Of a stretch of DNA of 64,000 bases, positions 13,482-51,940 are shown piece after piece (position 1 is the first letter of the stretch; every line of letters begins with the position of its first letter). The stretch comes from a virus (Duplodnaviria > Heunggongvirae > Uroviricota > Caudoviricetes). Where the stretch lies: the IMG/VR virus record IMGVR_UViG_3300021255_000139. The stretch is one strand, 5' to 3'. The position numbers and the translations under genes were made by a program. Under the pieces are notes generated by a model. It ran no database searches. It saw nothing but the letters and a program-made list of their open reading frames with translations, and was not told where the DNA came from.

Positions 13482-13880
13482 TTGAAAATGCCAGAAAAGA
13501 AACAGTTTAAGTATGGTGCTGTTGTTGAAATGAATCAGGATTTTAGCGTTGAATCAACAGAAGGTATGACATTCGACATTAAGAATGGTGAACTTGCTGT
13601 TGTGGGATTCGATAACTACATTCACTATATGGATCACAATCTCGTTGAAGAAATTAACCCGAAAACAGTTGAACTTAAAGGAATTTCGCCACGAGGTCTG
13701 TCGAACTACATTACTACATATTTGGACGCAAATATGAATCTTGAAGCTATGCTGAAAGAACATGACATGGATGGTCAGATGTTCGCAGATTATATTGCAG
13801 CAGCATTTGAAAATATCGGACTGCCGGACGATATGGAAGAACTCATGCCGACAGAAGAAACGGAGGAAGAAAATGAGTGA
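13482..13880 (+). CDS. acidic hypothetical protein
   Basis: ORF with RBS; acidic C-tail. Confidence 0.4.
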   Translation: MKMPEKKQFKYGAVVEMNQDFSVESTEGMTFDIKNGELAVVGFDNYIHYMDHNLVEEINPKTVELKGISPRGLSNYITTYLDANMNLEAMLKEHDMDGQMFADYIAAAFENIGLPDDMEELMPTEETEEENE

Positions 13881-14565
13881 CGGTATTTTTTGCAAAAACT
13901 GTAATAAGTATGTCAATGTTTTCTGTGATACATTTGACGGTCACACAAGATGTGAAGAATGTAAATCAGACAATCTTTACACGACTGAACAGATAATTGA
14001 AGATATGAATAAAAGAATTAAAAAGATGGAAGATAACAGCCGGATTATTCATGTTGATTTGAACCATGAGTCAGAAAAGGAATTGAAAAAGCTGAAAGAA
14101 ACTATGGGTAATCTTCCAGTAAGTATCATTGATAAGAACGAGTATGACGCTGTTTCTGCAAGTGGTGCGACTTATATTACTGTTTCTCCGTCTAACTACG
14201 AGAAGCTGAAGAAGGTTGCGCCGGGAGAACAAATCAGGGTATTTTGCACCGATAATCGCATTGAAGGACTTGTTTTTTCTTTGGTTGGAATTACCCACGA
14301 TACGGTTACATATGAACCGCCTAAGAATGAAACAAAACAGAAGTCGAAGAAGTCTAAGAAGAGACGTGCAAAAAAGTCAAAAAGAAAGAATGTTACTAAA
14401 ACTACACAGAAGAAGTTGACACAGCGAGAAGAGATGATCCGCAATGGTTCGATTGTTCCAGATAACGGAAGTCCGAAGAAAAGATATCCTTCTCACACAG
14501 CTTCAATTCCGTATAACAGAGACAGGTATCATTCAAGAAAAGATTATATAAGAAGTTATGAATAA
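13873..14565 (+). CDS. zinc-ribbon protein with lysine-rich C-terminus
   Basis: ATG 13873 after GGAGGAAG RBS; CKNCNK...CEECK. Confidence 0.45.
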   Translation: MSDGIFCKNCNKYVNVFCDTFDGHTRCEECKSDNLYTTEQIIEDMNKRIKKMEDNSRIIHVDLNHESEKELKKLKETMGNLPVSIIDKNEYDAVSASGATYITVSPSNYEKLKKVAPGEQIRVFCTDNRIEGLVFSLVGITHDTVTYEPPKNETKQKSKKSKKRRAKKSKRKNVTKTTQKKLTQREEMIRNGSIVPDNGSPKKRYPSHTASIPYNRDRYHSRKDYIRSYE

Positions 14566-14575
14566 TCGTGCATAA

Positions 14576-14734
14576 AATTAAGTTTTTATTCACTTCATTA
14601 TAAATAGCCATTTTACAGTGTTTGTGTGTCTCCTAACTTGATTATCTTGTGCATCAGTTAAATTCTGTTGGCTAAAAATAACGTAAAAACGTGCTTTTAG
14701 CCATTAGAATAAAAACTTAAGTTCATCAATAAAT
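14576..14734 (+). promoter_or_regulatory. structured leader element B (arms AAATTAAGTTTTTAT / ATAAAAACTTAAGTT; internal hairpin GGCTAAAA-ATAACGTAAAAACGTGC-TTTTAGCC)
   Basis: seen directly; same architecture as element A. Confidence 0.55.
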
Positions 14735-14743
14735 GTACTCTCA

Positions 14744-15610
14744 TTGTTTGATGGAATAAGTTGTGGATATTTGGCACTGCAACGAGCCGGATTGAATATA
14801 GATACATATTATGCAAGTGAAATTGAGCCTCATGCAGAAGGGATTTCAAAATATCATTTCCCGGACATTGTGAGATTAGGAGATGTAAATTTTTATGATA
14901 ATTGGAATCTTCCACACATTCATTTGTTGATTGGAGGAAGTCCATGTCAAGATTTATCTATTGCAAAGGCTAATAGAGAAGGACTAAACGGAGAGAAAAG
15001 CGGTCTATTTTGGAAATACGTTGAATGCTTAGAGAAGTTTAAACCAGATTATTTCTTGTTAGAGAACAATTACAGTATGCCAAAAGCTGCACGAGATGTA
15101 ATATCAGAAGTGCTTGGAGCAGAACCAATTATGATAAATTCTGATCTTGTTTCAGCACAAAACAGAAAAAGATTGTACTGGACAAATATATCGGGCATTG
15201 AACAGCCAAAAGATAAAGGAATAGAGTTGCAGAATATACTTGAAAGTGGAACAGTAGACCGTAAAAAATCATTATGTGTGACAAGACGATATGCTGGATT
15301 TCACGGATCACAAGCATTGTTATGTAGACGGTACTTTGGAAAGTCTTTTGGTCAGGCAGTTTTTGAGAAAGATATAAATACAATCAAACAACAATGGAAG
15401 GAAAACCCGTTCTTTGAATCTGATGATAACAACATTAGACAATTAACAATTACGGAGTGCGAAAGACTGCAGACTCTGCCAGATGGCTATACAAAGTATG
15501 AAGTATGGAAAAATGAAGTGAGAGAAACACCAAAAATCGCACGATATGAAGCAGTTGGTAATGGTTGGACAGTAGATGTGATAAGTCACATTTTAGGGTA
15601 TTTAAAATGA
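14744..15610 (+). CDS. DNA (cytosine-5)-methyltransferase
   Basis: motifs I (LFDGISCGYLAL), IV (GSPCQDLS), VIII (QNRKRLY), X (GNGW); TTG start. Confidence 0.8.
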   Translation: MFDGISCGYLALQRAGLNIDTYYASEIEPHAEGISKYHFPDIVRLGDVNFYDNWNLPHIHLLIGGSPCQDLSIAKANREGLNGEKSGLFWKYVECLEKFKPDYFLLENNYSMPKAARDVISEVLGAEPIMINSDLVSAQNRKRLYWTNISGIEQPKDKGIELQNILESGTVDRKKSLCVTRRYAGFHGSQALLCRRYFGKSFGQAVFEKDINTIKQQWKENPFFESDDNNIRQLTITECERLQTLPDGYTKYEVWKNEVRETPKIARYEAVGNGWTVDVISHILGYLK

Positions 15611-15957
15611 ATATAGATGAAGCTATTGCTCATGCCAAAGAAGTAGCAGAAAGTCAGGCTGATTTATATGATTGCTATTTGCAGCATGGAGAACAAGGCG
15701 ATCATGTGCAAGAATGCTTAAAATGTTCCGCACAGCATAGTCAGCTTGCCGAGTGGTTGGAGCAACTGAAACGTGCAGATACTCTTTTGACAGCAACTCA
15801 TGATTTATTGCAAAAACAATATAAGAATATCTATGTTCTGAATTTGCTTGCGGAAACAATTAACTATGACGAAGCTGAATGTGATGGAAATTGCTTAATG
15901 GAAGATATTGAAGCATGGATGATTGAACGTGGTATAGATCATGACGATGACGAATAA
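15607..15957 (+). CDS. hypothetical protein
   Basis: ATGA overlap with Dcm stop; ORF track start 15565 probably too early. Confidence 0.4.
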   Translation: MNIDEAIAHAKEVAESQADLYDCYLQHGEQGDHVQECLKCSAQHSQLAEWLEQLKRADTLLTATHDLLQKQYKNIYVLNLLAETINYDEAECDGNCLMEDIEAWMIERGIDHDDDE

Positions 15958-16435
15958 AGAAGCTATAAAACGTATCAAAGATTTTGCATTATATCATGCA
16001 ATACGTGACTTGCCAAATTCGGCGTATACAGTTGAAGCATTTGAAATGGCAATCAGAGCGTTAGAAAATCAAGATCGTGGAGTAGTTAGTCTTGGTGTAT
16101 ATGAACAAGTTCGGTGGGAAAGAGATATAGCAATCTCTCAACTCGAAGAACTTGGTTATGGTCTTGGAGAAAAGATTAGGGAAGAAGATAAGAAAATGGG
16201 TAAACCAACATTAGCTGACATCGCAGCTAAATTAAGTGAGTTCGATTCCGAATGTTTAATGACGATTGATGAATATCTTGAGTCTGTAGAAGATGGTTCG
16301 ATTACAGATTATGATGGTTGCGGAGTCTATGTAGATGATAACGGAATACAAACTATGGCAACAGACTTTGATCCAGACAAGATTAAAGCAATGAAAAATC
16401 TTGGAATCAGATTTGTATGCTGGTATAACAAATAA
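15941..16435 (+). CDS. hypothetical protein
   Basis: ORF. Confidence 0.4.
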   Translation: MTMTNKEAIKRIKDFALYHAIRDLPNSAYTVEAFEMAIRALENQDRGVVSLGVYEQVRWERDIAISQLEELGYGLGEKIREEDKKMGKPTLADIAAKLSEFDSECLMTIDEYLESVEDGSITDYDGCGVYVDDNGIQTMATDFDPDKIKAMKNLGIRFVCWYNK

Positions 16436-16441
16436 CTCATA

Positions 16442-16599
16442 AAATAATTTTTTTATTAACATTTTCTTGCATTTTCACCTCAATATAACCGAAAAATACC
16501 AAACAAAACCGCCGAATTTAGCAAAATAGACCGTAATATTACGGCAAAAAATGAAAAAATTGCCGATATTCAGCGGTTTTCGTTGATAAAAAAATTATT
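16442..16599 (+). promoter_or_regulatory. structured leader element C (arms AAATAATTTTTTTAT / ATAAAAAAATTATT; internal palindrome CCGTAATATTACGG)
   Basis: seen directly; third copy of same architecture. Confidence 0.5.
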
Positions 16600-16608
16600 C
16601 AATGGCAT

Positions 16609-17820
16609 TTGGTGAACTTCTCTGAAATTGATAAGTTTGCTATTAAGTCATACTGTGCGATACATGATGTGGATGAACAGTTAAATTTAGGTGATATTTC
16701 AAAGATTGATCCAGATGTCATTGATGATTTTGATTTAATGACGTGGGGATTTCCTTGTACTGATTTGAGTCGTGCCGGGAAACAGCAAGGCTTTTTAGAC
16801 AATAACGGAAATCTCACACGAAGCGGATTATATTATGAAGGTATCAGAATCTTACGTGCAAAGAAGCCGAAGATATCTATAATTGAGAACGTCAAGAACC
16901 TTGTTAGTAAAAGATTTTACAAAGAATTTCATATGATTTTGAACGATCTTGAAGAAGCCGGGTATAACTCCTATTGGAAAGTATTGAATGCAAAAGATTA
17001 TGGTGTTCCTCAAAATCGTGAAAGAGTTTTTATTGTATCTATCAGAAAAGATATAGATAATGGAAAGTTTCAATTTCCGCAGCCAAGAGAAAATCGCACT
17101 GCATTACTTGATATTATAGAGGAAAATGTAGATGAAAAATACTATGTAGACACGAAAAGAGCAGATGATTTAATTTCAAATGTAATTCTTGGAGATAATC
17201 TGCCAAAAGAAAAACTTAATGATATTATTCAATTAGGGAATATCGCAGTAGAGAAGGGCTTTAAAAACCCACAAATCGGAAGAGTCTATGATTCTCATGG
17301 AATCGCCCCCTCAATTACAACGATGCAAGGCGGTGATAGGATGCCAAAAGTATTGATTAGAGTAAGAGAGGGAACTAAAAAAGGATATGCAGAAGCTACA
17401 ATAGGAGATTCAATTAACATTGCTTATCCGAAAAGCGAAAACCGCAGGGGGAGAGTAGGAAAGCAAATGGTTAATACATTAGAAACATCTCCACAACAAG
17501 TTGTTGTTTTGGCTGATAAGGATGAAGTCTACAAAATAAGGCGATTAACACCGAAAGATTGTTGGCGTTGTATGGACTTCTCTGATGAAAGTTTTTATAA
17601 GGCACAAGCTGCAGGAATAAGTAATAGTCAGTTATATAAACAAGCCGGGAACAGTATTGTAGTTTCATGCTTATACTATATTCTCGAAGAATTATACAAA
17701 GCACTTCCTGATCAATTTTCTGACTTGGCTGTTACAAGTTTCTTTTCTGGTATAGGAGCATATGAAGTCGCACTGGATAGATTGTGCGAAAAAATAAATA
17801 ATGGCTTGACAAATGAATAA
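16609..17820 (+). CDS. DNA (cytosine-5)-methyltransferase, apparently circularly permuted (motif I at C-terminus)
   Basis: begins at post-motif-I segment NFSEIDKFAIKSY, then IV (GFPCTDLS), VI (ENV), VIII (QNRERVF), TRD, X (GNS), and ends with motif I FFSGIGAYEVALDRL; TTG start. Confidence 0.7.
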   Translation: MVNFSEIDKFAIKSYCAIHDVDEQLNLGDISKIDPDVIDDFDLMTWGFPCTDLSRAGKQQGFLDNNGNLTRSGLYYEGIRILRAKKPKISIIENVKNLVSKRFYKEFHMILNDLEEAGYNSYWKVLNAKDYGVPQNRERVFIVSIRKDIDNGKFQFPQPRENRTALLDIIEENVDEKYYVDTKRADDLISNVILGDNLPKEKLNDIIQLGNIAVEKGFKNPQIGRVYDSHGIAPSITTMQGGDRMPKVLIRVREGTKKGYAEATIGDSINIAYPKSENRRGRVGKQMVNTLETSPQQVVVLADKDEVYKIRRLTPKDCWRCMDFSDESFYKAQAAGISNSQLYKQAGNSIVVSCLYYILEELYKALPDQFSDLAVTSFFSGIGAYEVALDRLCEKINNGLTNE

Positions 17821-17849: not shown

Positions 17850-18155
17850 GTGATATTGATGCAAAGAAATGATTCGAGAAACACGAAAAGAAACAGAGAC
17901 AGGAAATATAAAGAAAAACTCAAACGTCTTTATAAAGTCAATAGCTGGATGGTTTCAAAACGTGATCCCGAAGATGATTTCTGTCGCAGAGATATCACCA
18001 AGGTTTATTATAAACGATTTTATTGGACAAATGGCGTGAAGAAATGGTTGCGCAGACAATCCAATAAAGCTATAAGAAACGCAACTTTTGATGAAATCCC
18101 CATGAAAGGTTGCGGTTACAAAAAGAAATATGACTTATGGTGGGAATTATATTAA
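17850..18155 (+). CDS. basic hypothetical protein
   Basis: ORF. Confidence 0.35.
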   Translation: MILMQRNDSRNTKRNRDRKYKEKLKRLYKVNSWMVSKRDPEDDFCRRDITKVYYKRFYWTNGVKKWLRRQSNKAIRNATFDEIPMKGCGYKKKYDLWWELY

Positions 18156-19123
18156 GGAGGAAAAGAATGGATATCATTAAAACACACACCGGGAAAATCT
18201 ATGTAGATAAGGAGAAGCAGCTTGAATTTCTTACTGTAGGAGATTATGGGAAAGAGAATAATATCAAAGCTGATTTTCTTGGACTCACAAAAGAGATTAA
18301 CGGAGTAGCAAATACTGCTGTTGATCTCACAAAGAAGTGGGTTGCAACAATTAGTACGCAGAAAGGTTGTCCGATGAAGTGTCAATTCTGCGATTGCCCT
18401 AAGTATGGATTTCACGGAAATGCGAGTGTTTCAGATTTGGTATATGAAATTGAAACAATCCTTATGAACGAACATATAAAGAATACAGAAAGATTTAATG
18501 TTCATTTTGCGAGGATGGGAGAGCCTACGTTCAATGAGAACGTATTGACTTTTGCCCGATACTATTTGAAGAACATTGTTGATAATTATGTTGCTGCGGA
18601 CACTATCCACCCGGTAGTCTCAACTATGCTGCCAGCCAAGAATAGAAAGTTAAAGGATTTTCTTCTCAACTGGTGCGAAATTAAAAATAGTGATTATAAA
18701 GGTGAAGCCGGACTGCAGTTCAGTATTAATAGTACGAATAATGAACAGAGAAACATACAATTCAACAATATGAGTCTGAATCTCGAACTGATTTCTTATC
18801 TGGCTGATCTTCTGCCTATGCCGATTGGTCGCAAATATACTCTGAATTTTGCGGTAACAAAAGATACGATTCTTGATGCAGATAGACTGTCGAACTTGTT
18901 TGATAAGGAAAAGTTCATTGTAAAAATCACACCGATTCACGAAACTAATTCTGCTATTAAAAATGGGTTTGACGTAACTACAACTTACACGGACTATGAT
19001 GTGTACAGACAGTTTGAACAGCCACTTGTTGAAAAAGGATGGGATGTTATCGTGTTTGTTCCATCAAAAGAAGAGGATAGCGACAGAATCACTTGCGGAA
19101 ATGCACTTATTTCTATGATGTGA
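18137..19123 (+). CDS. radical SAM domain protein
   Basis: CPMKCQFC (CxxxCxxC) and MGEPT motif. Confidence 0.65.
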   Translation: MVGIILRRKRMDIIKTHTGKIYVDKEKQLEFLTVGDYGKENNIKADFLGLTKEINGVANTAVDLTKKWVATISTQKGCPMKCQFCDCPKYGFHGNASVSDLVYEIETILMNEHIKNTERFNVHFARMGEPTFNENVLTFARYYLKNIVDNYVAADTIHPVVSTMLPAKNRKLKDFLLNWCEIKNSDYKGEAGLQFSINSTNNEQRNIQFNNMSLNLELISYLADLLPMPIGRKYTLNFAVTKDTILDADRLSNLFDKEKFIVKITPIHETNSAIKNGFDVTTTYTDYDVYRQFEQPLVEKGWDVIVFVPSKEEDSDRITCGNALISMM

Positions 19124-20555: not shown

Positions 20556-20939
20556 ATGAATAAATTTTATCTTTTGGTTGCTGGAACTCGAACATTTAAT
20601 GACTATGAACTTTTATCAAAGAAAATCAAGCAGCTAACAATCAAATACGGGAATGACATTTGTATCGTATCTGGTGGAGCAAAAGGAGCAGACACGTTAG
20701 CTGAACGATATGCAAAAGAACATGGTTTAGAATTTATAAAGTTTCCAGCGAAATGGGATGAATACGGAAAGAAAGCCGGATTTATCAGAAATGAAAAAAT
20801 GCATAATTATATCTCACAACACGAACATCGGGGTTGCGTTCTCTTTTGGGATGGGAGATCGAAAGGAACAAAACATAGTATAGCATTGTCAAAGAAGTAT
20901 GAAAATCAATTAAGAATTATTATGTATGAGGATCAATAA
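20556..20939 (+). CDS. SLOG/DUF2493-like nucleotide-binding protein
   Basis: LLVAGTRTFND ... IVSGGAKGADTLAERYA matches DUF2493/DprA-like Rossmann pattern. Confidence 0.5.
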   Translation: MNKFYLLVAGTRTFNDYELLSKKIKQLTIKYGNDICIVSGGAKGADTLAERYAKEHGLEFIKFPAKWDEYGKKAGFIRNEKMHNYISQHEHRGCVLFWDGRSKGTKHSIALSKKYENQLRIIMYEDQ

Positions 20940-21468: not shown

Positions 21469-21669
21469 ATGATTATAAAAGACATCGCAGAACTTCAAAA
21501 TAATTACAAAAAAATGATCGAATCAAATACTTTTTCAAAGAAAAGGTTAATTGAAATTTGTGTTCCATTTAGAGACAAATATCATCTTACTGATGGTCAA
21601 ACAGTAGCAATCGCAAGAGAAGAAATGTCTATATCTCAAATATATGAATTAGTGGGAGATGTTGAGTAA
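21469..21669 (+). CDS. hypothetical protein
   Basis: ORF with RBS. Confidence 0.35.
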   Translation: MIIKDIAELQNNYKKMIESNTFSKKRLIEICVPFRDKYHLTDGQTVAIAREEMSISQIYELVGDVE

Positions 21670-22286
21670 TGAATAAATACTATAAAACTTTTATCAGTGC
21701 AATCATTGCAGGAATATGTATCTCAATAGGTGGTACTTGTTTTCTTTCACTTGATAATAAAGTGATAGGAGCATTTATGTTTTCTTTAGGATTACTGACT
21801 ATTTGTTCTAATGAGTTTCATCTTTTCACCGGGAAAGTTTGTTTTGCAAGAAAGTGGGATGATTATCTTAACCTACTTTTAATATGGATCGGAAACTTTG
21901 TAGGTTGTGGGATTGTAGGGTTTTCTGTTAAATACACACGTCCGCAACTTATTCAGAAAGCGGTAGAAATTTGCAATATAAAAATGACAGAGAAGTGGTG
22001 GATGATTATCATTCTTGGGATTTTCTGCAATGTACTAATTTTCTTTGCTGTGAATAATTTCAAAGAGACAGCCAAAAAAGAAAAGGTAGTTCTCTTAATT
22101 ATGTGCGTGATGGCTTTCATACTATGCGGATTTGAACACTGTGTTGCAAATATGTTCTATTTCATTGTTGCCGGAACACCTGATTCTACAAGATATATAC
22201 TTCTCAATACGGTTGGAAATGCAGCCGGAGGTTTGGCAATCGGCTTAGTCTGTGAAAGGTTAAAGGTAAGACATGAGCATCTTTGA
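21669..22286 (+). CDS. formate/nitrite transporter (FNT) family channel-like membrane protein, short
   Basis: multi-TM; FEHCVANMFYF resembles FNT signature FEHSIANMF. Confidence 0.45.
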   Translation: MNKYYKTFISAIIAGICISIGGTCFLSLDNKVIGAFMFSLGLLTICSNEFHLFTGKVCFARKWDDYLNLLLIWIGNFVGCGIVGFSVKYTRPQLIQKAVEICNIKMTEKWWMIIILGIFCNVLIFFAVNNFKETAKKEKVVLLIMCVMAFILCGFEHCVANMFYFIVAGTPDSTRYILLNTVGNAAGGLAIGLVCERLKVRHEHL

Positions 22287-23640: not shown

Positions 23641-23940
23641 ATGGAACAAATGAAAAGCCACAAGTTTGATGCAGAAGAAAGAAAGGTTTTTGATTCTATT
23701 AAAACTGTGAAGCAGATGAATGTTTTATATTCTTCTTATGGAGATGAAAGAACAAAAGCCTTGCAGACAAGTTTGCAGTGTATGAGGAAATTCATTCCTG
23801 AAGTTGCCAGATTTGACAACAAAAGAAATAGATTCATTTGCCCTACTTGTGGAAATCGCATTAAATTAAGAAAGAACGATTTAATGAAATTCTGTGGTGA
23901 CTGTGGTCAAAAATTACTTTATGAAGGTATTGATGAATGA
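23641..23940 (+). CDS. zinc-ribbon protein
   Basis: CPTCGN...CGDCGQ; ATG 23641 after GGAGG; ORF-track start 23476 overlaps previous gene. Confidence 0.4.
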   Translation: MEQMKSHKFDAEERKVFDSIKTVKQMNVLYSSYGDERTKALQTSLQCMRKFIPEVARFDNKRNRFICPTCGNRIKLRKNDLMKFCGDCGQKLLYEGIDE

Positions 23941-24416
23941 GTTATAAAGAGATTCAGGCTGATTTATTTTCTATGCCAGAAGAGTATTTTCTCGCACATT
24001 GTATTAGTGCTGACTTAGGCATGGGAAAGGGAATCGTAGTTGAGTTTAATAAACGGTTTGATATGAAGAATAAGTTGGTGCGAAAATATGGCAATCGTTT
24101 AGACGAGTGGGATAAAAACGACTATGGAGAATGTATTCTTGAAGATCGTGTGTTTAATCTTATTACGAAACGAAATTACTGGAATAAACCAACTTATGAT
24201 ACGTTGATTTCCGCACTAAAAGATATGAGATATCAAGCCATTAACAATAATATTAAACATATAGCAATGCCTATGATTGGCTGTGGATTGGATAGACTCA
24301 ACTGGATTCGAGTATCATATATCATTCAGAAGATTTTTTCTGAAACAGATATAGAAATTGTTGTTTGTATGAATGCGAAAAATTATAAAATGTTCGCACA
24401 CAGGGAGAAAGAATGA
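23937..24416 (+). CDS. macrodomain protein (TARG1/OARD1-like ADP-ribosyl hydrolase)
   Basis: LAHCISADLGMGKGIVVEFNKRF closely resembles OARD1 core HCISEDCRMGAGIA. Confidence 0.55.
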   Translation: MSYKEIQADLFSMPEEYFLAHCISADLGMGKGIVVEFNKRFDMKNKLVRKYGNRLDEWDKNDYGECILEDRVFNLITKRNYWNKPTYDTLISALKDMRYQAINNNIKHIAMPMIGCGLDRLNWIRVSYIIQKIFSETDIEIVVCMNAKNYKMFAHREKE

Positions 24417-24895
24417 AACAGGTAATTGTAGCAAATAAGTCATTGAATATGAGTCCGGGAAAGTTAGCAGCTATGGTCGCACATGGATCAATCGCCTTTC
24501 TGATTGCATGGTTTAAAGAGTATACTGATATTTCCTTTGAAATCCAAACGCCAGACAAAAGATATGATTATGGATATGGAATGTTCGAGGATGCCAATAT
24601 TGACAGAACAACATTTTCCGAATGGATTAACGGATCATTTACAAAGATTGTTCTTGAAGCAGATCAAGATGAAATGGAAAATATTATAAGAGCAGCACAA
24701 GAGAATCATATGTATAATGGAGAAGATTTCTTCAACATTGTAGATGAATCAACAGAGTTTGAAAATATCCCACGATGGGCTGTTATTGCGTTTAGACCGA
24801 TGGAGTCTGAAGAAATTGATCCTATAACCGGGCATTTAAACCTTTATGGGAAAGAAGATAGTTCTTTAGATAATCAGGTGGAAACATGGACGTAA
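24413..24895 (+). CDS. peptidyl-tRNA hydrolase PTH2-like
   Basis: SPGKLAAMVAHGS resembles PTH2 GKGKIAAQCAHA. Confidence 0.45.
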   Translation: MKQVIVANKSLNMSPGKLAAMVAHGSIAFLIAWFKEYTDISFEIQTPDKRYDYGYGMFEDANIDRTTFSEWINGSFTKIVLEADQDEMENIIRAAQENHMYNGEDFFNIVDESTEFENIPRWAVIAFRPMESEEIDPITGHLNLYGKEDSSLDNQVETWT

Positions 24896-25778: not shown

Positions 25779-26232
25779 TGAAAATGAGAGTAAGAACAAG
25801 AGAAGAGAAGAAAATTAGTGACTTATTGAACACTATGTCATTAGTTGATATTAGAATAATTTCAGAAATAGAAGAAATACAACGAGGAAATGAACATTCT
25901 TCAAAAGATATATTGGAAGGAATTGAGTATATCCTTGAAGAAAGATTTGCATTTATGATTAGAGATGAAAATAAACCAGAATAAAAAGCTGGTTTTATTC
26001 TCATAGCTGTTTCAAGCCATGACTCTGGCTGGAAATCACGTTTTTGTGGATACTTTTTGTATGAGATAGATAAATCGTCATTCACCGTAATTCTATATAA
26101 TTTATGGAGTGTTCCGCTATGATCGAATGCTTTGATAATCTGTTTGTCCAACCAGTAATATCCCTCAAATAACGGTAATACGGCATTTTTTGCACTCCAC
26201 ATATCAATCAATTCTTTATATATTGGTTGCAT
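25750..26232 (-). CDS. hypothetical protein (3' extent uncertain)
   Basis: ATG 26232 preceded by AAGGAGA RBS; 26232-25990 part looks protein-like, remainder is probably antisense read-through. Confidence 0.3.
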   Translation of the reverse strand: MQPIYKELIDMWSAKNAVLPLFEGYYWLDKQIIKAFDHSGTLHKLYRITVNDDLSISYKKYPQKRDFQPESWLETAMRIKPAFYSGLFSSLIINANLSSRIYSIPSNISFEECSFPRCISSISEIILISTNDIVFNKSLIFFSSLVLTLIFISTFCSSVV

Positions 26233-27275
26233 ATTTCTCCTTTGCAATAAAACCAGCTTTTGAAATCAAAGAAAAGAAAAGCATCCAACTTATACAAGAT
26301 ACTGTTGACACTCACCCAGAGTATAGTTCTTTCGTGCTACATTCGACAGGAAAAGATAGTGTTGTCGTTCAGCATTTATGTGATATGGCAAATAGAAATA
26401 TAAAGACTGTTTTCAATAATACAACATTGGATTGTGCAGATACATACCGAATAGTCAATCTAAACAAAGACAAATGGATCATTACAACGCCGGACATAGG
26501 ATTCTATCAATATATTAAAAAAGAGAACTTTATTCCAACAAGATTTTCGAGAGCCTGTTGTTCAATATTTAAAGAAGGAAATCACATCAATCATTTTGAT
26601 AATGTCGATAAGGCAATATGGATAATGGGTGTTCGGAATGATGAAAGTGCAAAAAGATCGAACAGACAAGATATAGAACATAACCCAAAGTGGGGAAATC
26701 GAGAATGGATTGGGTTATTGCCTATTAGAAAATGGACAGAATTGGAAGTTTGGCTTTATATTATATTGAACAATTTGCCATTAAATCCGAAATATAGAAA
26801 AGGATATAAAAGATGTGGCTGCCATGTGGCGTGTCCATATCAGAGCAAATCTGATTGGATTCTTGATCAGTATTTCTATCCTAAAATGTATAATAGGTGG
26901 CATAATATTCTTGAAGATGATTTTATAAAAAATGGGAAATGGTGTACGCTTAATTGCACGATTGAAGAATATCATAAGTATTGGAACGGTGGTGTAGTTC
27001 GAGAAATTCCAACACGAGAAGTGATTGAAGAATTTATGAAATACAAAGGTATTGATGATTTTTCTTTGGCTGAGAAGTATTTCAACAAGAAGTGTAAGAA
27101 ATGTGGCAGACTGATACGATCTAAAGATGTAATAGCTATGAACTTGAAAATGAGAAGTCGGACTTGCTCTGATTTTTACTGTAAAAAATGCTTTATAAAA
27201 GAAGCTGAAATAACAAAAGAAGAATGGGATAGTTATATTAGTGGCTTCAAAAATGAAGGTTGTGTTTTGTTCTAA
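26190..27275 (+). CDS. PAPS reductase family / PP-loop ATP pyrophosphatase with C-terminal zinc ribbon (DndC/SspD-like)
   Basis: STGKDS PP-loop, GVRNDES, PIRKWTELEVWLYI, CGCHVACP, C-terminal CKKCGR...CKKC; TTG start. Confidence 0.7.
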   Translation: MHSTYQSILYILVAYFSFAIKPAFEIKEKKSIQLIQDTVDTHPEYSSFVLHSTGKDSVVVQHLCDMANRNIKTVFNNTTLDCADTYRIVNLNKDKWIITTPDIGFYQYIKKENFIPTRFSRACCSIFKEGNHINHFDNVDKAIWIMGVRNDESAKRSNRQDIEHNPKWGNREWIGLLPIRKWTELEVWLYIILNNLPLNPKYRKGYKRCGCHVACPYQSKSDWILDQYFYPKMYNRWHNILEDDFIKNGKWCTLNCTIEEYHKYWNGGVVREIPTREVIEEFMKYKGIDDFSLAEKYFNKKCKKCGRLIRSKDVIAMNLKMRSRTCSDFYCKKCFIKEAEITKEEWDSYISGFKNEGCVLF

Positions 27276-27349
27276 AATATCTGTTGACAAAACATTTACT
27301 TTATGATATTATAACGAATAGATAAATACAGAAAGGAAGTGAGACAAGA

Positions 27350-27919
27350 TTGAGTGTGAATATTACTAATCACGCTGCAATGAGGTATGCTGAAAGAATT
27401 GCCGATAAAGAATCATTAGCAGACATAAATACCTATGTTGCCAGAAACCGGGATAAGATAGAAAATGATATAAATACAATGCTTGATCATTCAGATTTTC
27501 TTTATCACGGAAGAGTAGGAACAAAAGATAACGGTGTTGTTGATGTATATCTCTCTGGAACATGGATTCTTTTATTGGATTCAGCCAAAAGCAAAGTGAT
27601 TACACTATACAAAGTTGATTTCAATGTGGGCGAAGATTTCAACAAGCAGTTCATTCAAAAGATTCTCGAACGAATGGAGATTCACAAGAAAGAACTGGAT
27701 GAAGTGAAAAAAGAAGTTGCAGAACAGCGTGAGAATTATCTGCAAATCATTAAAGATAACAAAAGTCAGATTGCAGAATATAAGAACGCTATAAGGCAGT
27801 TAGAAAATCTCAATACCGATTATCAAGATATTGTTGACACTATGGATGCAAAATGTATAGCTTCTGAAATTGCAATCCGGCATGATGTTGAAGATTTAGT
27901 TATGAAGAGGGAGTTCTAA
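27350..27919 (+). CDS. coiled-coil protein
   Basis: ORF; heptad-like charged C-half. Confidence 0.4.
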   Translation: MSVNITNHAAMRYAERIADKESLADINTYVARNRDKIENDINTMLDHSDFLYHGRVGTKDNGVVDVYLSGTWILLLDSAKSKVITLYKVDFNVGEDFNKQFIQKILERMEIHKKELDEVKKEVAEQRENYLQIIKDNKSQIAEYKNAIRQLENLNTDYQDIVDTMDAKCIASEIAIRHDVEDLVMKREF

Positions 27920-29097
27920 TGCTTTATTACGATAATGCAGCAACAACAAGGGTTGACAAAAGTTTAGAGCCAATTTTGCAGAGTATGTTCTTTGACAATT
28001 ACGGCAACCCATCAAGCGTACATACAGTCGGACAATATGCAAAAGAAGTAATTGAGAGAGCGAGGGAGTTGGTTGCGATTTCCATAAATTGCGCACCAGA
28101 TGAAATCATTTTCACATCAGGAGGATCAGAGTCAAATAACCTTGCCCTTAAAGGATTTTCATTTGCGAATGACTGTGAGATTATCACAAGTCCTATTGAA
28201 CACAAGTCAATTTTAGAGACTTGTAAATTCTTACAGAATCAACAAATAAATAAATACTACACTGTCGATGTGGATTCAGACGGTGTGGTTGAAATGTTTA
28301 GTCTGCAAGAAAGAATAGCAGAGGTTAAAAGTTATAATCTGATTCCGCTGGTAAGTATTCAGTTGGCAAATAGTGAAATCGGAACGATTCAACCAATTAA
28401 GGAAATAGCAAAAGTTGTTCATTCTTTTGGTGGTGTTCTTCACGTTGACGCAGTTCAGGCGTACTTCACAATCCAAATTGATGTTCAAGATATGGGAATT
28501 GATATGCTGTCCGTATCTGGTCATAAGATTGGAGTTCCGAAAGGGATAGGCTTTTTATATAAGAAGAAAAGCATACATATCGAACCTTTAATTCATGGTG
28601 GTGGTCAAGAACATGGATTGAGAGCCGGAACAGAGAACACTCCGTATATTGCAGCTTTAAACGATAAACTTTGTCGAGATTTCAGCGAAGAAGATATAGG
28701 GCAAAAAGCGGAACAGCTTTATCAAATGAGGACGTATCTCGAAAAGAAACTGTTAAAAATTCCAGATTCAAGAATCAATGGAGCAGAAAACAAACTACCG
28801 GGGAATATAAATATCAGTTTCAAAGACATTGACGGAGAAACACTTATGATGCTTCTCGACACAAATGATTTAGAGGTATCAAATGGTTCAGCTTGTAATG
28901 CTGGAAATCCAGAACCTTCATATGTACTGAAAGCTATCAAAGTTCCAGATGACTATATTAACGGAACAATTCGGATCACGATTGCCCCGAAAAAGAAATC
29001 AAATTCATATCGGTTAGAATCGAAAGATTTTGCAGAACTTGATATGGTTGCAGATAAGATAAGTAAATATGTAAGTGTTTTAAGAAAAGTTAGGTAG
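27919..29097 (+). CDS. cysteine desulfurase (class V aminotransferase, IscS/NifS/DndA-like)
   Basis: YYDNAATT N-terminus, SGGSESN, PLP lysine motif SVSGHKIGVPKG, active-site Cys region NGSACNAG. Confidence 0.8.
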   Translation: MLYYDNAATTRVDKSLEPILQSMFFDNYGNPSSVHTVGQYAKEVIERARELVAISINCAPDEIIFTSGGSESNNLALKGFSFANDCEIITSPIEHKSILETCKFLQNQQINKYYTVDVDSDGVVEMFSLQERIAEVKSYNLIPLVSIQLANSEIGTIQPIKEIAKVVHSFGGVLHVDAVQAYFTIQIDVQDMGIDMLSVSGHKIGVPKGIGFLYKKKSIHIEPLIHGGGQEHGLRAGTENTPYIAALNDKLCRDFSEEDIGQKAEQLYQMRTYLEKKLLKIPDSRINGAENKLPGNINISFKDIDGETLMMLLDTNDLEVSNGSACNAGNPEPSYVLKAIKVPDDYINGTIRITIAPKKKSNSYRLESKDFAELDMVADKISKYVSVLRKVR

Positions 29098-30125: not shown

Positions 30126-30224
30126 CAGGTTATGTGTTGTAGCGTCCAACGTTTGTTACGTGTACAACAACGGTACTTTGAACAGGAACGACTGTGACTA
30201 TTCAAAGGGTGTGCGCCCGTTCTG
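30126..30224 (+). repeat. DGR1 template repeat (TR1)
   Basis: seen directly; AAC-rich; shared GC-rich 3' end GGGTGTGCGCCCGT (IMH-like). Confidence 0.75.
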
Positions 30225-31365
30225 GTGGATAGCGAGGGCGAGTAAGCAATATGCTGAAAGGAGAACAACATCATCAAAAGAACACATAACCTTTCCAAAT
30301 AAAAAGGATAAATACAAAGGTTTAAATAAAATATTGACAGACTTTCAAAAAGTCGTAGACTTCGGAAACTTATATAGAGCATATAAGAAAGCCAAAAAAG
30401 GTAAAAGAAATAAACGAAGTGTAGTAAAATTCGCCATTGTAGCACTTGAAGGTATTCATTTACTAAGAGAACTACTGACAAAGAGAACATATACAATTTC
30501 TTCATATGGCGAATTTACTATATTTGAACCAAAAGAAAGATTAGTAAAGTCTGGAGCATTTAAAGATAAAGTAGTTCAGCATTCATTGTGTGATAATGTC
30601 TTATTACCAACAATGGCAGAGTTATTTATAGAGAATAATTTCGCCGGACAAATAGGGAAAGGAACATTATTCGGACTGGATCATTTGAAGAACGATATGC
30701 TGCAATTCCATAAAGAACATGGAATGGACGGCTATATTCTAAAATGCGATATTACTAAATTCTTTTATACCATAGACCATGATGTATTGAAAAGTGTTGT
30801 CCGAAAATACTTTTCGGATGAAGGTATTATTTGGTTATGTGATCTATTTATAGATAGTACAGATGGAGTAGGAATACCACTTGGAAATCAAGTAAGTCAA
30901 GTATTCGCACTAATGTACTTAAATGAATTGGATCACATTATAACAGAAGAATTACATATAAAGTATTATGGAAGATATATGGATGACTTTTATTTAATAC
31001 ATGAAGATAAAGAATACTTGAAATATTGTCTGAATGTAATTCAAGAGCATATTCATAGTTTGAAATTAACATTGAATGGTAAAACACAGATTATGCCGTT
31101 CAAAAATGGCATCAAATTTCTTGGCTTTCATACATATGTGACACCAGAAGGAAAAGCAATACGGAAACTCAAAAATGAAAATAAGCGCATGATTAAAAAG
31201 CGTTTATTAAAACACAGCAAACTTGTTAAGGCTGGAAAGATGACAAAAGAGAAGTTCTTTGAATCATATGAATCGTGGAAAAATCACGCATCACATGGAA
31301 ACTGTATTAAGCTGATTTATCAAATGGATAAATATGTTGAAGAACTATTCAAGGAAACAAAATAA
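30160..31365 (+). CDS. DGR reverse transcriptase (RT1)
   Basis: RT motifs ILKCDITKFFYTIDH, IPLGNQVSQVFAL (DGR-type GxxxSQ), YGRYMDDFYLI; ORF-track N-terminus is translated TR, true start probably about 30250-30340. Confidence 0.8.
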   Translation: MYNNGTLNRNDCDYSKGVRPFWWIARASKQYAERRTTSSKEHITFPNKKDKYKGLNKILTDFQKVVDFGNLYRAYKKAKKGKRNKRSVVKFAIVALEGIHLLRELLTKRTYTISSYGEFTIFEPKERLVKSGAFKDKVVQHSLCDNVLLPTMAELFIENNFAGQIGKGTLFGLDHLKNDMLQFHKEHGMDGYILKCDITKFFYTIDHDVLKSVVRKYFSDEGIIWLCDLFIDSTDGVGIPLGNQVSQVFALMYLNELDHIITEELHIKYYGRYMDDFYLIHEDKEYLKYCLNVIQEHIHSLKLTLNGKTQIMPFKNGIKFLGFHTYVTPEGKAIRKLKNENKRMIKKRLLKHSKLVKAGKMTKEKFFESYESWKNHASHGNCIKLIYQMDKYVEELFKETK

Positions 31366-40092: not shown

Positions 40093-40347
40093 ATGATTAT
40101 TACGATGATGAATACTTTTAATATTTCGATTAACACGATTGATAAAGTTAAGCGGTTTGTGAATTTGACAAATCGGTGCGAAGTAGATGTCGATATAATC
40201 AGTGGCAGACTTCTTGTTGATGCAAAATCCATTATGGGTATTTTCAGTATGGATTTGACAAGACCTATGACACTCCGTGTTCACGAGTCCAATATTGAAA
40301 AATTGGAAGAATATAAGAAAATGTTTGAGGAATTTATTATTGAATAA
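40093..40347 (+). CDS. HPr-like (PTS phosphocarrier fold) small protein lacking catalytic His
   Basis: VDAKSIMGIFSMDLTRPMTL resembles HPr VNLKSIMGVMSLGI; no His15 equivalent. Confidence 0.35.
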   Translation: MIITMMNTFNISINTIDKVKRFVNLTNRCEVDVDIISGRLLVDAKSIMGIFSMDLTRPMTLRVHESNIEKLEEYKKMFEEFIIE

Positions 40348-40360
40348 AGCTGATTTATAT

Positions 40361-41194
40361 ATGGTCAGAGATATTAAGGAAATTTTCGACAATGGGTTTG
40401 TTGACGAAAATCCACGTCCGAAGTATTCCGATGGAACTCCGGCACACACATTATCAGTTAATCATGTTGTGCGAAAGTATGATCTAAATCGAGAATTTCC
40501 AATCTTATCTCTTAGGAAAATTGCTTGGAAAACTGGCATCAAAGAAATTTTTACAATCTATCAGAAACCAACAAACAACATTTGTAGCATGGAAAGCATG
40601 GGTGTCACATGGTGGAAACCGTGGGATATCGGAGATGGAACTATTGGACAGCGATATGGTGCAACAGTTGCACGATACGATCTTATCAATAATCTGATTA
40701 AAGATATCCAGAATGATCCATATGGTCGCAGAAAAATTGTCTCGTTGTGGCAAGAAGCTGATTTGAGAGAAACTGCCGGACTTGCACCTTGCGCATTCTT
40801 GACTATGTGGAATATAAGAAAAGATAAGAGCGAAAAAGAATTTCTTGATATGGCACTTATTCAGAGAAGTGGGGATATGCTTGCTGCATCGGGTGCTGGT
40901 GGAATTAACGAATGTCAGTATGCAGCATTGCAGATGATGATTGCACGACATACGGGATATGAACCGGGTATTTTCACACACTTTGTAGCAAATGAGCAGA
41001 TTTATGATCGTCATGTATCTGCAGCAAAACTTCTTCTCGAAAGATATGAAGATATACGGTCTGAAAATGAACGGAATCCAAGGTTAATTTTAAATCCAGA
41101 TAAAACAAACTTCTACGATTTTACGATTGATGATTTTACGATGGAAGAGTATAATCCTGTTCCCGGAAAGGTCGAACTTGATTTAGGTATTTAA
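40361..41194 (+). CDS. thyA: thymidylate synthase (ThyA-type)
   Basis: RRKIVSLWQ, catalytic LAPCAFLTMWN, IQRSGD, Asn retained in INECQYAAL; start trimmed to ATG 40361. Confidence 0.75.
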   Translation: MVRDIKEIFDNGFVDENPRPKYSDGTPAHTLSVNHVVRKYDLNREFPILSLRKIAWKTGIKEIFTIYQKPTNNICSMESMGVTWWKPWDIGDGTIGQRYGATVARYDLINNLIKDIQNDPYGRRKIVSLWQEADLRETAGLAPCAFLTMWNIRKDKSEKEFLDMALIQRSGDMLAASGAGGINECQYAALQMMIARHTGYEPGIFTHFVANEQIYDRHVSAAKLLLERYEDIRSENERNPRLILNPDKTNFYDFTIDDFTMEEYNPVPGKVELDLGI

Positions 41195-41195
41195 T

Positions 41196-41696
41196 ATGAT
41201 AAAAGCAATCGTTGCAGTGGACAACAAGTGGGGTATTGGTAAGAAGAATAAACTTCTTGCCAATATTCCTGAAGATATGAAGTTTTTCAAAGAAATGACA
41301 ACAGGTTCTGTAGTTATTATGGGTATGAATACATTTAAGTCCATGAATTACAAACCGTTACCAAATAGACAGAATATTGTGATTTGTCGAACTGACGAAA
41401 CAAATCCGTACAGTTATGACAATCTGACATTCATGAATATAACAGAAGTAAAGTTTTATTTATTGAAAAACTCTAACAAAAACATTTTCATTATTGGTGG
41501 AGGTGCGACTTATAATTGTTTCTTCGGTTTTTGCGACCTTATATATGTAACAAAAATCTTTAATGATTATGGCGCAGATACATTCTTCAGAAATCTTGAC
41601 GAAGAGGAAGGATGGAAAGAATCACATTCTGATCCAATAGTGACAAAGAATAATATAATAATACAGTTTTGCAAATACGAAAGGATCAATAAATGA
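41196..41696 (+). CDS. folA: dihydrofolate reductase
   Basis: AVDNKWGIGKKNKLLANIPEDMKFFKEMTTGSVVIMGMNTF classic DHFR N-terminus. Confidence 0.8.
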   Translation: MIKAIVAVDNKWGIGKKNKLLANIPEDMKFFKEMTTGSVVIMGMNTFKSMNYKPLPNRQNIVICRTDETNPYSYDNLTFMNITEVKFYLLKNSNKNIFIIGGGATYNCFFGFCDLIYVTKIFNDYGADTFFRNLDEEEGWKESHSDPIVTKNNIIIQFCKYERINK

Positions 41697-50411: not shown

Positions 50412-50436
50412 TAATTCGCACCGCCTTGATTAATAG

Positions 50437-51231: not shown

Positions 51232-51319
51232 GTAATCACCTCATTAAAATATTGTTGTAACCCCTCTATTTCTCACGCCATCTTAATGAGATTGGTTAGC
51301 ATTCCCAATACGATTTATG

Positions 51320-51478: not shown

Positions 51479-51524
51479 ATTAATCCTCCAAAAATTATCA
51501 AAAATTGATGATAAAATGTATCTT

Positions 51525-51926: not shown

Positions 51927-51940
51927 TTACATTACCTCTT

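What the first reader, a model, noticed from the sequence alone, without database searches (positions are those of the whole stretch)
21669..22286. Short FNT-family (formate/nitrite channel-like) membrane protein on an element that encodes formate-dependent NrdD
FEHCVANMFYF closely resembles the FNT signature FEHSIANMF and the protein is polytopic. However, 205 aa is shorter than FocA or NirC, so the fold may be incomplete. Class III RNR (42777-45002) uses formate as reductant, so a phage-borne formate channel could feed nucleotide synthesis.
Basis: inference. Interest (0 to 1): 0.5.

Follow-up and report, generated by a model that had tools for sequence, protein, structure and literature searches.

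The report
Phage formate channel linked to anaerobic RNR
A large gut phage carries a complete, unusually compact formate-channel gene, and in many other phages the equivalent gene sits right beside the oxygen-sensitive enzyme that consumes formate to make DNA building blocks, so the phage probably brings its own formate supply line.

Summary
The ORF at 21669-22286 (+) is real and is a clear FNT (formate/nitrite transporter) family member: Pfam PF01226 scores 106 bits against a cutoff of 34.6. About 3,000 homologs are all roughly 200 aa. The AlphaFold model (pLDDT 90) has the full six-helix FNT topology and matches only FNT channels in the PDB. The uptake-critical Thr54 and His157 and most other FocA pore residues are conserved. 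What is missing is FocA's N-terminal gating helix and long loops.

Cellular relatives sit in formate dehydrogenase and formate-tetrahydrofolate ligase operons, which points to formate as the substrate. The window's NrdD is the formate-type enzyme.

In 12 of 22 de-replicated viral loci (17 of 30 raw), plus two metagenomic phage contigs, the FNT gene lies directly beside nrdD/nrdG. This was seen in 0 of 80 cellular loci (p≈5e-10). FNT and NrdD lineages are mixed between phages, so the pairing arose or was kept repeatedly.

In this window the two are 20 kb apart, and one phage lineage pairs the FNT with a non-formate-type NrdD. I found no prior description.

The parts
21669..22286 (+). Gene for a 205-aa compact FNT-family channel (the finding)
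   Evidence: ORF; PF01226 at 106 bits; AlphaFold pLDDT 90.3 and pTM 0.86 with full FNT topology; Foldseek top hits are HSC, FocA, NirC and PfFNT.
21828..21830 (+). Codon ACC for Thr54 in the 'LFTG' Omega-loop, equivalent to E. coli FocA T91
   Evidence: Read and aligned to V. cholerae FocA T90; invariant in 33 viral and 84 cellular sequences. T91 is required for formate uptake in FocA (PMC11841067).
22131..22151 (+). S-loop motif F-E-H-C-V-A-N (Glu156, His157, Asn161), equivalent to FocA E208, H209 and N213
   Evidence: H157 and E156 are invariant. H209 is required for formate uptake, and H209N/Q variants only export (PMC8914244).
42777..45002 (+). nrdD, a class III (anaerobic) ribonucleotide reductase of the formate type with an ATP-cone
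   Evidence: PF13597 at 492 bits plus ATP-cone. Matches P. copri NrdD 8p23 at E=2e-125 and T4 NrdD at 7e-79, against T. maritima NrdD at 3e-9. Cys175, the Met412-Gly-Cys414 finger loop, Asn434 in place of the third Cys, and Gly713 are present. The criterion comes from PMC11226230.
45003..45512 (+). nrdG, the radical-SAM activase of NrdD
   Evidence: PF13353 Fer4_12 at 169 bits and Radical_SAM.
40277..41696 (+). thyA (40277-41194) and DHFR (41196-41696), folate-dependent dTMP synthesis; a possible second sink for formate-derived one-carbon units
   Evidence: PF00303 at 196 bits and PF00186 at 140 bits. A cellular FNT homolog sits inside an FTHFS-FchA-FolD operon. The link to the FNT is inferred only.

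Best explanation
The gene encodes a functional, minimal FNT-family anion channel whose most likely substrate is formate/formic acid. Made in the infected cell's membrane, it lets external formate, or formate the host has excreted, flow back in. This sustains the phage's formate-consuming class III ribonucleotide reductase (NrdD/NrdG), which oxidises one formate to CO2 for each dNTP made. It may also feed the folate one-carbon pool used by the phage ThyA/DHFR. Because the channel lacks the N-terminal helix through which PflB gates E. coli FocA, it probably works without that host control.

Shown: family membership, a complete fold, conserved pore and uptake residues, formate-metabolism context of cellular relatives, a formate-type NrdD, and recurrent FNT-nrdDG adjacency in phages.

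Inferred: that formate is the substrate, that the direction is import, and that NrdD is the beneficiary.
For: (1) Family and fold: PF01226 at 106 bits against 34.6; model pLDDT 90.3 with TM1, TM2a/break/TM2b, TM3, a short helix, TM4, TM5a/break/TM5b and TM6; only FNT channels among the top 50 PDB hits.

(2) Pore residues: F38, L42, L52, T54, K105, N121, F150, E156, H157, N161 and N184 match V. cholerae/E. coli FocA constriction and pore residues. His and Thr are the residues required for uptake in FocA.

(3) Substrate: cellular homologs at 45-50% identity lie in NuoE/NuoF/FdhA/FdhD formate dehydrogenase operons and in an FTHFS-FchA-FolD-FNT-5-FTHF-cycloligase operon. About 15 of 80 genome loci show FTHFS/FolD/FchA or FdhA within 10 kb, mostly within 1.5 kb. 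Formate-type models and structures score highest (TIGR04060 at 64 bits against NirC at 34; V. cholerae FocA at 8.8e-12).

(4) Linkage: the FNT is directly beside nrdD/nrdG in L012 and L013 (61-62% identical FNT) and in 17 of 30 IMG/VR loci, which is 12 of 22 clusters at 90% identity. The figure is 0 of 80 for cellular loci, Fisher p=4.8e-10. NrdD is the single largest neighbour cluster.

(5) Lineage mixing: window against L046 is NrdD 73% and FNT 35%; window against L012 is NrdD 36% and FNT 62%. The pairing is therefore not one inherited block.

(6) In 11 of the 12 linked lineages, NrdD or the adjacent NrdG is of the window's formate-type family. Where the site could be read, Asn replaces the third Cys.

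(7) Arithmetic (inference): a genome of about 110-166 kb (contig lengths) needs 2-3e5 dNTPs per copy. A burst of 50-100 made de novo would consume about 1-3e7 formate molecules, equivalent to tens of mM in a 1 fL cell.
Against: In this window the FNT gene is 20 kb from nrdDG and sits among unrelated small ORFs (a YspA-SLOG protein, PTH2, a macro domain), so there is no local operon evidence here. One phage lineage (L019/20/21) pairs the FNT with a T. maritima-type NrdD with a 'NCCRL' finger loop; that enzyme type was inactive with formate and needed a protein reductant. Ten of 22 viral lineages have no nrdD within 10 kb. FNT channels are poorly selective in vitro, and pore residues do not discriminate formate from nitrite, hydrosulfide or lactate. 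The acidic residue equivalent to FocA D88 is His51 here and varies across the clade. In E. coli FocA, removing the N-terminal helix severely disrupts translocation, so FocA cannot be used to assume that a channel lacking the helix works. No transport, expression or pentamer data exist.
Confidence: 0.55

Rival explanations
1. The channel imports formate mainly for the folate one-carbon pool (host FTHFS to 10-formyl-THF to methylene-THF), supporting phage thymidylate synthesis (ThyA/DHFR here, ThyX elsewhere) and purine synthesis, rather than serving NrdD. This is not exclusive of the main explanation.
For: A cellular homolog is embedded in an FTHFS-FchA-FolD-FNT-5-FTHF-cycloligase operon, and 7-8 of 80 genome loci show FTHFS/FolD nearby. 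The window encodes ThyA and DHFR next to nrdDG. L012 has ThyX 1.4 kb upstream of nrdD-nrdG-FNT, and L042 has a ThyX-domain protein about 1 kb from its FNT. It would also explain the L019-21 pairing with a non-formate NrdD.
Against: No phage locus examined carries FTHFS or FolD (0 of 30 viral loci), so the route depends entirely on host enzymes. ThyA and DHFR were not found within 10 kb of the FNT in any viral locus by tblastn, whereas nrdD/nrdG was the dominant neighbour.
Confidence: 0.15
2. The channel works mainly as an exporter or pH valve. It releases formate/formic acid made by host pyruvate formate-lyase to keep fermentation and cytoplasmic pH stable during infection. Alternatively it is a lysogenic-conversion gene that benefits the host's formate metabolism.
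For: Export is the primary role of FocA in fermenting E. coli. The window encodes a serine recombinase (45760-47631), and L012/L013 encode integrases, so these phages may be temperate and could carry host-benefit genes.
Against: Export does not explain the specific, repeated adjacency to a formate-consuming enzyme. The uptake-essential His and Thr are invariant in all 33 viral copies, although efflux-only N/Q variants exist in nature. The gene lies within the replication and nucleotide-metabolism array, not next to the recombinase.
Confidence: 0.12
3. The channel carries a different small anion, such as hydrosulfide, nitrite, lactate or acetate. In this phage hydrosulfide would fit a possible connection with the nearby sulfur-handling genes (PAPS-reductase-like and cysteine-desulfurase-like, 26190-29097).
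For: C. difficile HSC structures are among the best fold matches and score 1e-7 by sequence. PAPS_reduct and Aminotran_5 genes lie 4-7 kb downstream. FNTs conduct several anions. One cellular homolog (P0027) sits near two acetate kinase genes.
Against: The PAPS-reductase and desulfurase genes are not near the FNT in the other phage lineages, where nrdDG is. Among the cellular neighbour clusters that were identified, the recurrent metabolic ones were formate enzymes. The NirC equivalog scores 34 bits against a 293 cutoff.
Confidence: 0.1
4. The membrane protein is used for something other than metabolite transport, for example holin-like membrane permeabilisation or superinfection exclusion.
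For: It is a small polytopic phage membrane protein. PHROGs gives only a weak match to a family of unknown function.
Against: It is not in the lysis region (endolysins lie at 47979-54091 on the - strand). The full set of FNT pore residues is conserved down to about 30% identity in viral copies, as expected for a working selective pore.
Confidence: 0.03

Closest known systems
FocA (formate channel of E. coli, Salmonella and V. cholerae; PDB 3kcu, 3kly, 3q7k, 9g49)
   Same: Same Pfam family and same six-helix fold with broken TM2 and TM5. It shares the constriction residues (F38, L42, L52, F150), the central Thr/His pair, and the equivalents of K156, N172, E208, N213 and N262. A likely formate substrate is suggested by the context of cellular relatives.
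   Different: It is 205 aa against 280-285 aa and about 22-26% identical. About 2 residues precede TM1, instead of the 25-32-aa N-terminal helix that binds PflB and gates FocA. Loops are shortened. The acidic D88 position is His. There is no Y-L-R motif after TM6 (the sequence is C-E-R-L-K). It falls far below the FocA equivalog cutoffs (64 against 290 bits). It is not next to pflB.
The short (~200 aa) FNT clade of gut and rumen Bacillota and other anaerobes, annotated only as 'formate/nitrite transporter family protein'
   Same: Same length and architecture, and 45-50% identity. The invariant residues are shared. This clade is the probable source of the phage genes.
   Different: Cellular copies lie by formate dehydrogenase, FTHFS/FolD or generic transport and regulatory genes, and never by nrdDG (0 of 80). 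Phage copies form several long-branch lineages. I found no experimental study of this clade in the searched library.
HSC/FNT3 hydrosulfide channel of C. difficile (PDB 3tdo) and NirC nitrite channel (PDB 4fc4)
   Same: Equally good structural matches (TM-score 0.76-0.85) and the same Thr/His/Lys pore chemistry.
   Different: Weaker sequence scores than V. cholerae FocA (1e-7 and 7e-5 against 9e-12). No sulfite- or nitrite-reductase genes were noticed in the contexts examined.
Phage nucleotide-metabolism auxiliary genes (T4-like nrdD/nrdG, td, frd)
   Same: The window carries nrdD, nrdG, thyA, DHFR and a GMP-kinase/NT5C fusion as one block. The NrdD is homologous to T4 NrdD.
   Different: Adding a membrane channel for the reductant itself is not part of the classical set. 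Searches of the paper library for phage or viral FNT or formate transporters linked to NrdD returned nothing relevant.

Membership tests
FNT family (Pfam PF01226, Form_Nir_trans) | Profile match above the curated gathering score over most of the domain | tested here: met
   106.3 bits against 34.6; residues 4-191 cover profile positions 18-233 of 240.
FNT family (Pfam PF01226, Form_Nir_trans) | Aquaporin-like protomer with six TM helices, TM2 and TM5 each broken by a loop (Omega-loop and S-loop) | tested here: met
   AlphaFold pLDDT 90.3; helices 31-48|53-59 and 137-152|158-168 are the broken pairs. The top 50 Foldseek PDB hits are all FNT channels, with TMq mostly 0.76-0.85.
FNT family (Pfam PF01226, Form_Nir_trans) | Central His in the S-loop and Thr in the Omega-loop (FocA H209 and T91) | tested here: met
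   His157 and Thr54, aligned to V. cholerae FocA H208 and T90; invariant in 117 sequences.
FNT family (Pfam PF01226, Form_Nir_trans) | The other seven conserved pore residues of FocA (D88, K156, N172, E208, S210, N213, N262; PMC9380403) | tested here: met
   K105, N121, E156, C158 (Cys also in V. cholerae FocA), N161 and N184 are present. The D88 position is His51, so it is not acidic. That makes six of seven.
FNT family (Pfam PF01226, Form_Nir_trans) | Homopentamer | not tested
   Only a monomer was modelled. A multimer prediction or native PAGE is needed.
FocA proper (TIGR04060 / NF008069 equivalogs) | Score above the equivalog cutoff | tested here: not met
   64.3 bits against 290.1, and 28.7 against 440.
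FocA proper (TIGR04060 / NF008069 equivalogs) | Cytoplasmic N-terminal helix (about 25-32 aa) that binds PflB and gates the channel | tested here: not met
   TM1 starts at residue 3. The described subfamilies have 25-55 aa before TM1; the role of the helix is given.
FocA proper (TIGR04060 / NF008069 equivalogs) | Y-L-R/K motif immediately after TM6 | tested here: not met
   The C-terminus reads ...GLVCERLKVRHEHL, with no Y-L-R. Relatives have R-R-L or R-K-L-like basic stretches. The motif is described.
NirC (NF008595 equivalog) | Score above the equivalog cutoff | tested here: not met
   34.1 bits against 293.
Formate-transporting FNT (functional class) | Formate or hypophosphite translocation | not testable with these tools
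   Only indirect support is available: FDH and FTHFS operon context of cellular homologs and nrdDG adjacency in phages.
Formate-type class III RNR (NrdD1 sensu Wei et al.) for the window's NrdD | Beta-1 Cys and finger-loop Cys present, no third Cys on beta-strand 6 (Asn instead), C-terminal glycyl radical site, NrdG activase | tested here: met
   C175, M412-G-C414, N434 and G713, aligned to P. copri NrdD C171, C416, N435 and G711. nrdG is adjacent. The match to the experimentally formate-requiring PcNrdD is E=2e-125. Formate dependence of this particular enzyme is not assayed.

The most novel reading that the evidence does not exclude
nrdD-nrdG-FNT is a recurrent phage module, assembled repeatedly, in which a stripped-down and probably ungated formate channel makes anaerobic phage dNTP synthesis independent of the host's own formate production and export control. 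This would be a transporter-type auxiliary gene dedicated to supplying the reductant of a viral ribonucleotide reductase. It would tie the replication of gut and rumen phages to the formate cross-feeding pool of the community. An extension that cannot be excluded is physical coupling between the channel and the glycyl-radical enzyme NrdD, by analogy with FocA-PflB but through a different interface.
Probability: 0.45. Interest if true: 0.65.

Novelty: new member of a known kind. Interest (0 to 1): 0.5.

Why it matters
Class III RNR is one of the commonest nucleotide-metabolism genes in phages of anaerobes, but where its reductant comes from during infection has not been considered. A phage-borne formate channel repeatedly placed beside nrdDG suggests that formate supply can limit phage DNA synthesis in the gut and rumen. 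It would also link phage productivity to community formate cross-feeding. The approximately 200-aa helix-less FNT is in addition a natural minimal version of a channel family whose gating and transport mechanism are still debated, and which is a drug target in parasites. The prediction is directly testable with existing FocA assays.

Tried and rejected
(1) Truncated or incomplete FNT: rejected, because the profile coverage, the roughly 3,000 homologs of similar length, the confident full-topology model and the fold matches all argue against it.

(2) Megablast of 15 kb around the gene against INPHARED phages gave no match. tblastn of the FNT found only six weak records; Phass-1 has its copy annotated 'hypothetical protein' and no annotated nrdD within 6 kb.

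(3) PHROGs gave only a weak match to a family of unknown function for the FNT.

(4) The promoter and terminator scan of 18-26 kb gave counts at or below shuffle expectation and no + strand terminator near the gene, so it says nothing about co-transcription with nrdDG.

(5) tblastn with the window NrdD initially missed the L024 and L019-21 nrdD genes. Neighbour clustering plus Pfam recovered them.

(6) Large ORFs abutting the FNT in the loci scored as lacking nrdD were tested as possible divergent NrdD/NrdG. They are not: they are unknowns, ThyX, HNH, intein-bearing helicase, terminase-like or HAD proteins.

(7) The 'FocA' hit in the phage G megaphage paper was the word 'focal'.

(8) A hydrosulfide-channel link to the nearby PAPS-reductase and desulfurase genes was considered and down-weighted, because that neighbourhood is not conserved in other phage lineages.

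(9) The NJ tree is crude. I use it only to show several deep viral lineages, not to infer the direction of transfer.

Full report
**Observation.** The ORF at 21669-22286 (+) exists. It starts with ATG and encodes 205 aa containing FEHCVANMFYF. Its start overlaps the stop of the upstream 66-aa ORF (TAATG), and its end overlaps the next ORF by 14 nt. It therefore lies in a dense same-strand array that runs from the start of the window to about 47.6 kb. The window is a phage. It has DNA polymerase, DnaB-like helicase, NAD-dependent ligase, a tail protein and several endolysins. Near-identical FNT copies (99%) lie on syntenic metagenomic contigs of up to 166 kb. There are no tRNAs and no megablast match to deposited phages.

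**What the protein is.** Pfam Form_Nir_trans matches at 106.3 bits (cutoff 34.6) over profile positions 18-233 of 240. NCBIfam subfamily and equivalog models for FNT, FocA and NirC match but fall far below their cutoffs, so it is an FNT but not FocA or NirC proper. The best solved relatives are V. cholerae FocA (8.8e-12), C. difficile HSC (1e-7) and NirC (7e-5).

The length is not a defect. About 2,964 database proteins match, and almost all of those listed are 190-230 aa. Several are named as coming from Bacillota MAGs. A genome scan found the same short form in Oscillospiraceae, Lachnospiraceae, Ruminococcus, Prevotella, Coriobacteriia and others.

An AlphaFold model built on 31 homologs is confident (pLDDT 90.3, pTM 0.86). 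It shows TM1 (3-27), TM2a (31-48), a break, TM2b (53-59), TM3 (63-90), a short helix (93-106), TM4 (110-131), TM5a (137-152), a break, TM5b (158-168) and TM6 (173-204). The top 50 Foldseek PDB hits are all FNT channels, with TM-scores of mostly 0.76-0.85 normalised to the query.

Relative to FocA, what is missing is the N-terminal cytoplasmic helix and loop length, not any transmembrane element. The eight described FNT subfamilies have 25-55 residues before TM1 (PMC5525234). This protein has two.

**Pore residues.** I mapped the residues by hand onto the V. cholerae FocA alignment and checked them in the family alignments.
- The constriction residues F38, L42, L52 and F150 are present and invariant.
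- Thr54 and His157 (FocA T91 and H209) are present and invariant in 33 viral and 84 cellular sequences.
- K105, E156 and N184 (FocA K156, E208 and N262) are present and conserved.
- N121 and N161 (FocA N172 and N213) are canonical in the window protein. A covarying 'CG…FEHCIAD' variant replaces them in many other copies.
- The acidic D88 position is His51 and varies across the clade.

In FocA, H209 and T91 are both required for uptake, and H209N/Q variants become efflux-only (PMC8914244, PMC11841067). Strict retention of both residues fits a channel selected for import, though it does not prove it.

**Substrate.** Pore chemistry does not discriminate among FNT substrates, so I used genomic context.
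- Cellular homologs P0042 and P0050 (49-50% identical) follow NuoE-like, NuoF-like, FdhA and FdhD genes.
- P0116 sits between FolD and 5-formyl-THF cycloligase in an FTHFS-FchA-FolD operon.
- Among 80 genome loci, about 15 have FTHFS/FolD/FchA or FdhA-like genes within 10 kb, mostly within 1.5 kb.
- The other recurrent neighbours that I identified are generic: ABC transporters, two-component systems and a sigma factor.

Formate is therefore the best-supported substrate for the clade, by inference.

**The NrdD premise.** The window NrdD (PF13597 at 492 bits, with an ATP-cone) matches P. copri NrdD at 2e-125 and T4 NrdD at 7e-79. It matches T. maritima NrdD only at 3e-9, over the glycyl-radical region. 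P. copri NrdD was shown to require formate, and its hallmark is Asn435 in place of a third active-site Cys (PMC11226230). The window enzyme aligns Cys175, the TMGCRT finger loop (Met412, Cys414), Asn434 and Gly713 to the corresponding positions. It is formate-type by every sequence criterion available.

**The link.** In this window the FNT gene and nrdDG are 20 kb apart. In other phages they are adjacent.
- In metagenomic phage contigs L012 and L013 (with integrase, holin and many small ORFs), the FNT is 61-62% identical and the order is nrdD-nrdG-(small ORF)-FNT.
- A scan of IMG/VR returned 30 loci. tblastn, neighbour clustering and Pfam together show nrdD and/or nrdG within about 3.5 kb of the FNT in 17 of them.
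- The orders seen are nrdD-nrdG-FNT, nrdD-FNT-nrdG and FNT-nrdD.
- After clustering FNTs at 90% identity, the count is 12 of 22 lineages.
- None of 80 cellular loci with comparable flanks has nrdD or nrdG. Fisher p=4.8e-10, and p is still 5e-8 when clustering at 50% identity.
- NrdD was the largest neighbour cluster of all.

The pairing is not a single inherited block. Window against L046 is NrdD 73% and FNT 35%, while window against L012 is NrdD 36% and FNT 62%. Linked FNTs also fall in at least eight deep lineages in a rough NJ tree. Repeated or maintained association across shuffled lineages is the signature expected of functional coupling. In 11 of the 12 linked lineages, NrdD or the adjacent NrdG is of the window's formate-type family. 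Where the site could be read, it has Asn at the third-Cys position.

**Evidence against.**
- One lineage (L019/20/21) has DNA ligase, FNT, a 138-aa ORF, NrdD and NrdG, and its NrdD is a close relative of T. maritima NrdD (2e-150, with an 'NCCRL' finger loop). That enzyme type was inactive with formate and needed a protein factor (PMC4493059).
- Ten viral lineages have no nrdD within 10 kb. Their neighbours are ordinary phage genes with no alternative recurrent partner. As in this window, nrdD could lie further away, but I could not see beyond the flanks.
- In E. coli FocA, deleting the N-terminal helix severely disrupts transport. The helix-less clade must therefore work differently from FocA in this respect.
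- Nothing here measures transport, oligomeric state or expression timing. The promoter and terminator scan was uninformative.

**Mechanism proposed.** The channel inserts into the host membrane during the replication phase. It allows proton-coupled entry of formate from the medium, or re-entry of formate the host has excreted. NrdD, activated by NrdG, oxidises one formate to CO2 for each ribonucleotide reduced (established biochemistry for this NrdD type; Mulliez et al. 1995, as cited).

As a rough calculation, a genome of about 110-166 kb replicated 50-100 times entirely de novo needs about 1-3e7 formate molecules, which is tens of mM in a 1 fL cell. Supply could plausibly be limiting. A second, non-exclusive sink is the folate pool through host FTHFS, feeding the phage ThyA/DHFR. 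Export or pH relief, a different anion, and non-transport roles are less well supported; they are covered under the rival explanations.

**Comparison and novelty.** The protein is a new member of a known family, in a short clade that is abundant in databases. I found no characterisation of that clade. Full-text searches for phage or viral formate transporters, FNTs as auxiliary metabolic genes, or FocA together with phage RNR returned nothing relevant. The one named phage carrying a homolog annotates it as hypothetical. The library does not cover most subscription journals, so the absence of prior work is not proven.

**Verdict.** Confidence that this is a working FNT channel is high (about 0.9). 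Confidence that it carries formate is about 0.7. Confidence that its selected role is to supply NrdD is about 0.55.

Noticed in passing
L022 6689-9784, L023 5681-8776, L044 6913-10008; also L026 6445-7764 + 8501-9493, L017 6106-7047 + 8075-8353, and L024, L029, L030: Many FNT-adjacent phage nrdD genes are interrupted. In L022/23/44, NrdD is 1031 aa with a roughly 290-aa insertion exactly between 'FSTMG' and 'CRTA' of the thiyl-radical finger loop. The insert ends ...HN before the catalytic Cys, which is intein-like. In other loci nrdD is split into two ORFs 0.3-1 kb apart, which looks intron- or homing-endonuclease-like; L026 is split at the same TMG|CRT site. The window's nrdD is intact.
   Followed up: partly
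L019 11486-13462 (also L020, L021): A phage T. maritima-type (NrdD2-like, 'NCCRL') class III RNR with its own NrdG lies about 1 kb from an FNT gene. It is the one lineage where the FNT is paired with a putatively non-formate NrdD.
   Followed up: partly
FNT alignment across L017-L126 (for example L031 and L046 against the window): There are two FNT sub-types. One is the canonical 'CN…FEHC[VI]AN', as in the window and FocA. The other is a variant 'CG…FEHCIAD', in which the equivalents of FocA N172 and N213 are Gly and Asp. The Asp form is far more frequent in viral copies (about 14-17 of 33) than in cellular copies (6-8 of 84).
   Followed up: partly
window 26190-27275 and 27919-29097: A PAPS-reductase-like gene (phrog_424) and an Aminotran_5 (cysteine-desulfurase-like) gene lie close together, which suggests a sulfur-transfer or nucleic-acid thiolation module.
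   Followed up: no
window 30160-31365 (+) and 57176-58507 (-): There are two reverse-transcriptase genes. The first is RVT_1, by synteny with L002. The second matches phrog_1423 and lies among tail and structural genes, so it is a possible diversity-generating retroelement.
   Followed up: no
window 34239-36521, 23937-24895: An RNA-repair-like set: an Rnl1-type RNA ligase (34239-35573), a kinase/HD-phosphatase protein (35574-36521), a weak macro-domain protein (23937-24416) and a PTH2 peptidyl-tRNA hydrolase (24413-24895). It may be a counter-defence against tRNA-targeting host systems.
   Followed up: no
window 41693-42787: A guanylate-kinase domain fused to an NT5C 5'-deoxynucleotidase domain sits directly upstream of nrdD, overlapping it by 11 nt, and directly downstream of thyA-DHFR.
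   Followed up: no
window 13762-17820, 18137-19123, 20556-20939: A run of DNA methyltransferase genes (by synteny with L001/L002), a weak radical-SAM protein and a YspA/SLOG-family protein lie upstream of the FNT gene.
   Followed up: no
window 47979-50411, 51941-52888, 52898-54091 (all -): Three separate lysin-type genes: an 810-aa ELLD + SH3 + CHAP protein and two endolysin/amidase proteins. This fits a Gram-positive host.
   Followed up: no
L127 5875-6555 (Phage Phass-1, OQ749652, 89049-89729): The only named phage record in the phage collection with an FNT-like gene over most of its length (28% identity) annotates it as 'hypothetical protein'. No ribonucleotide reductase is annotated within 6 kb.
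   Followed up: partly
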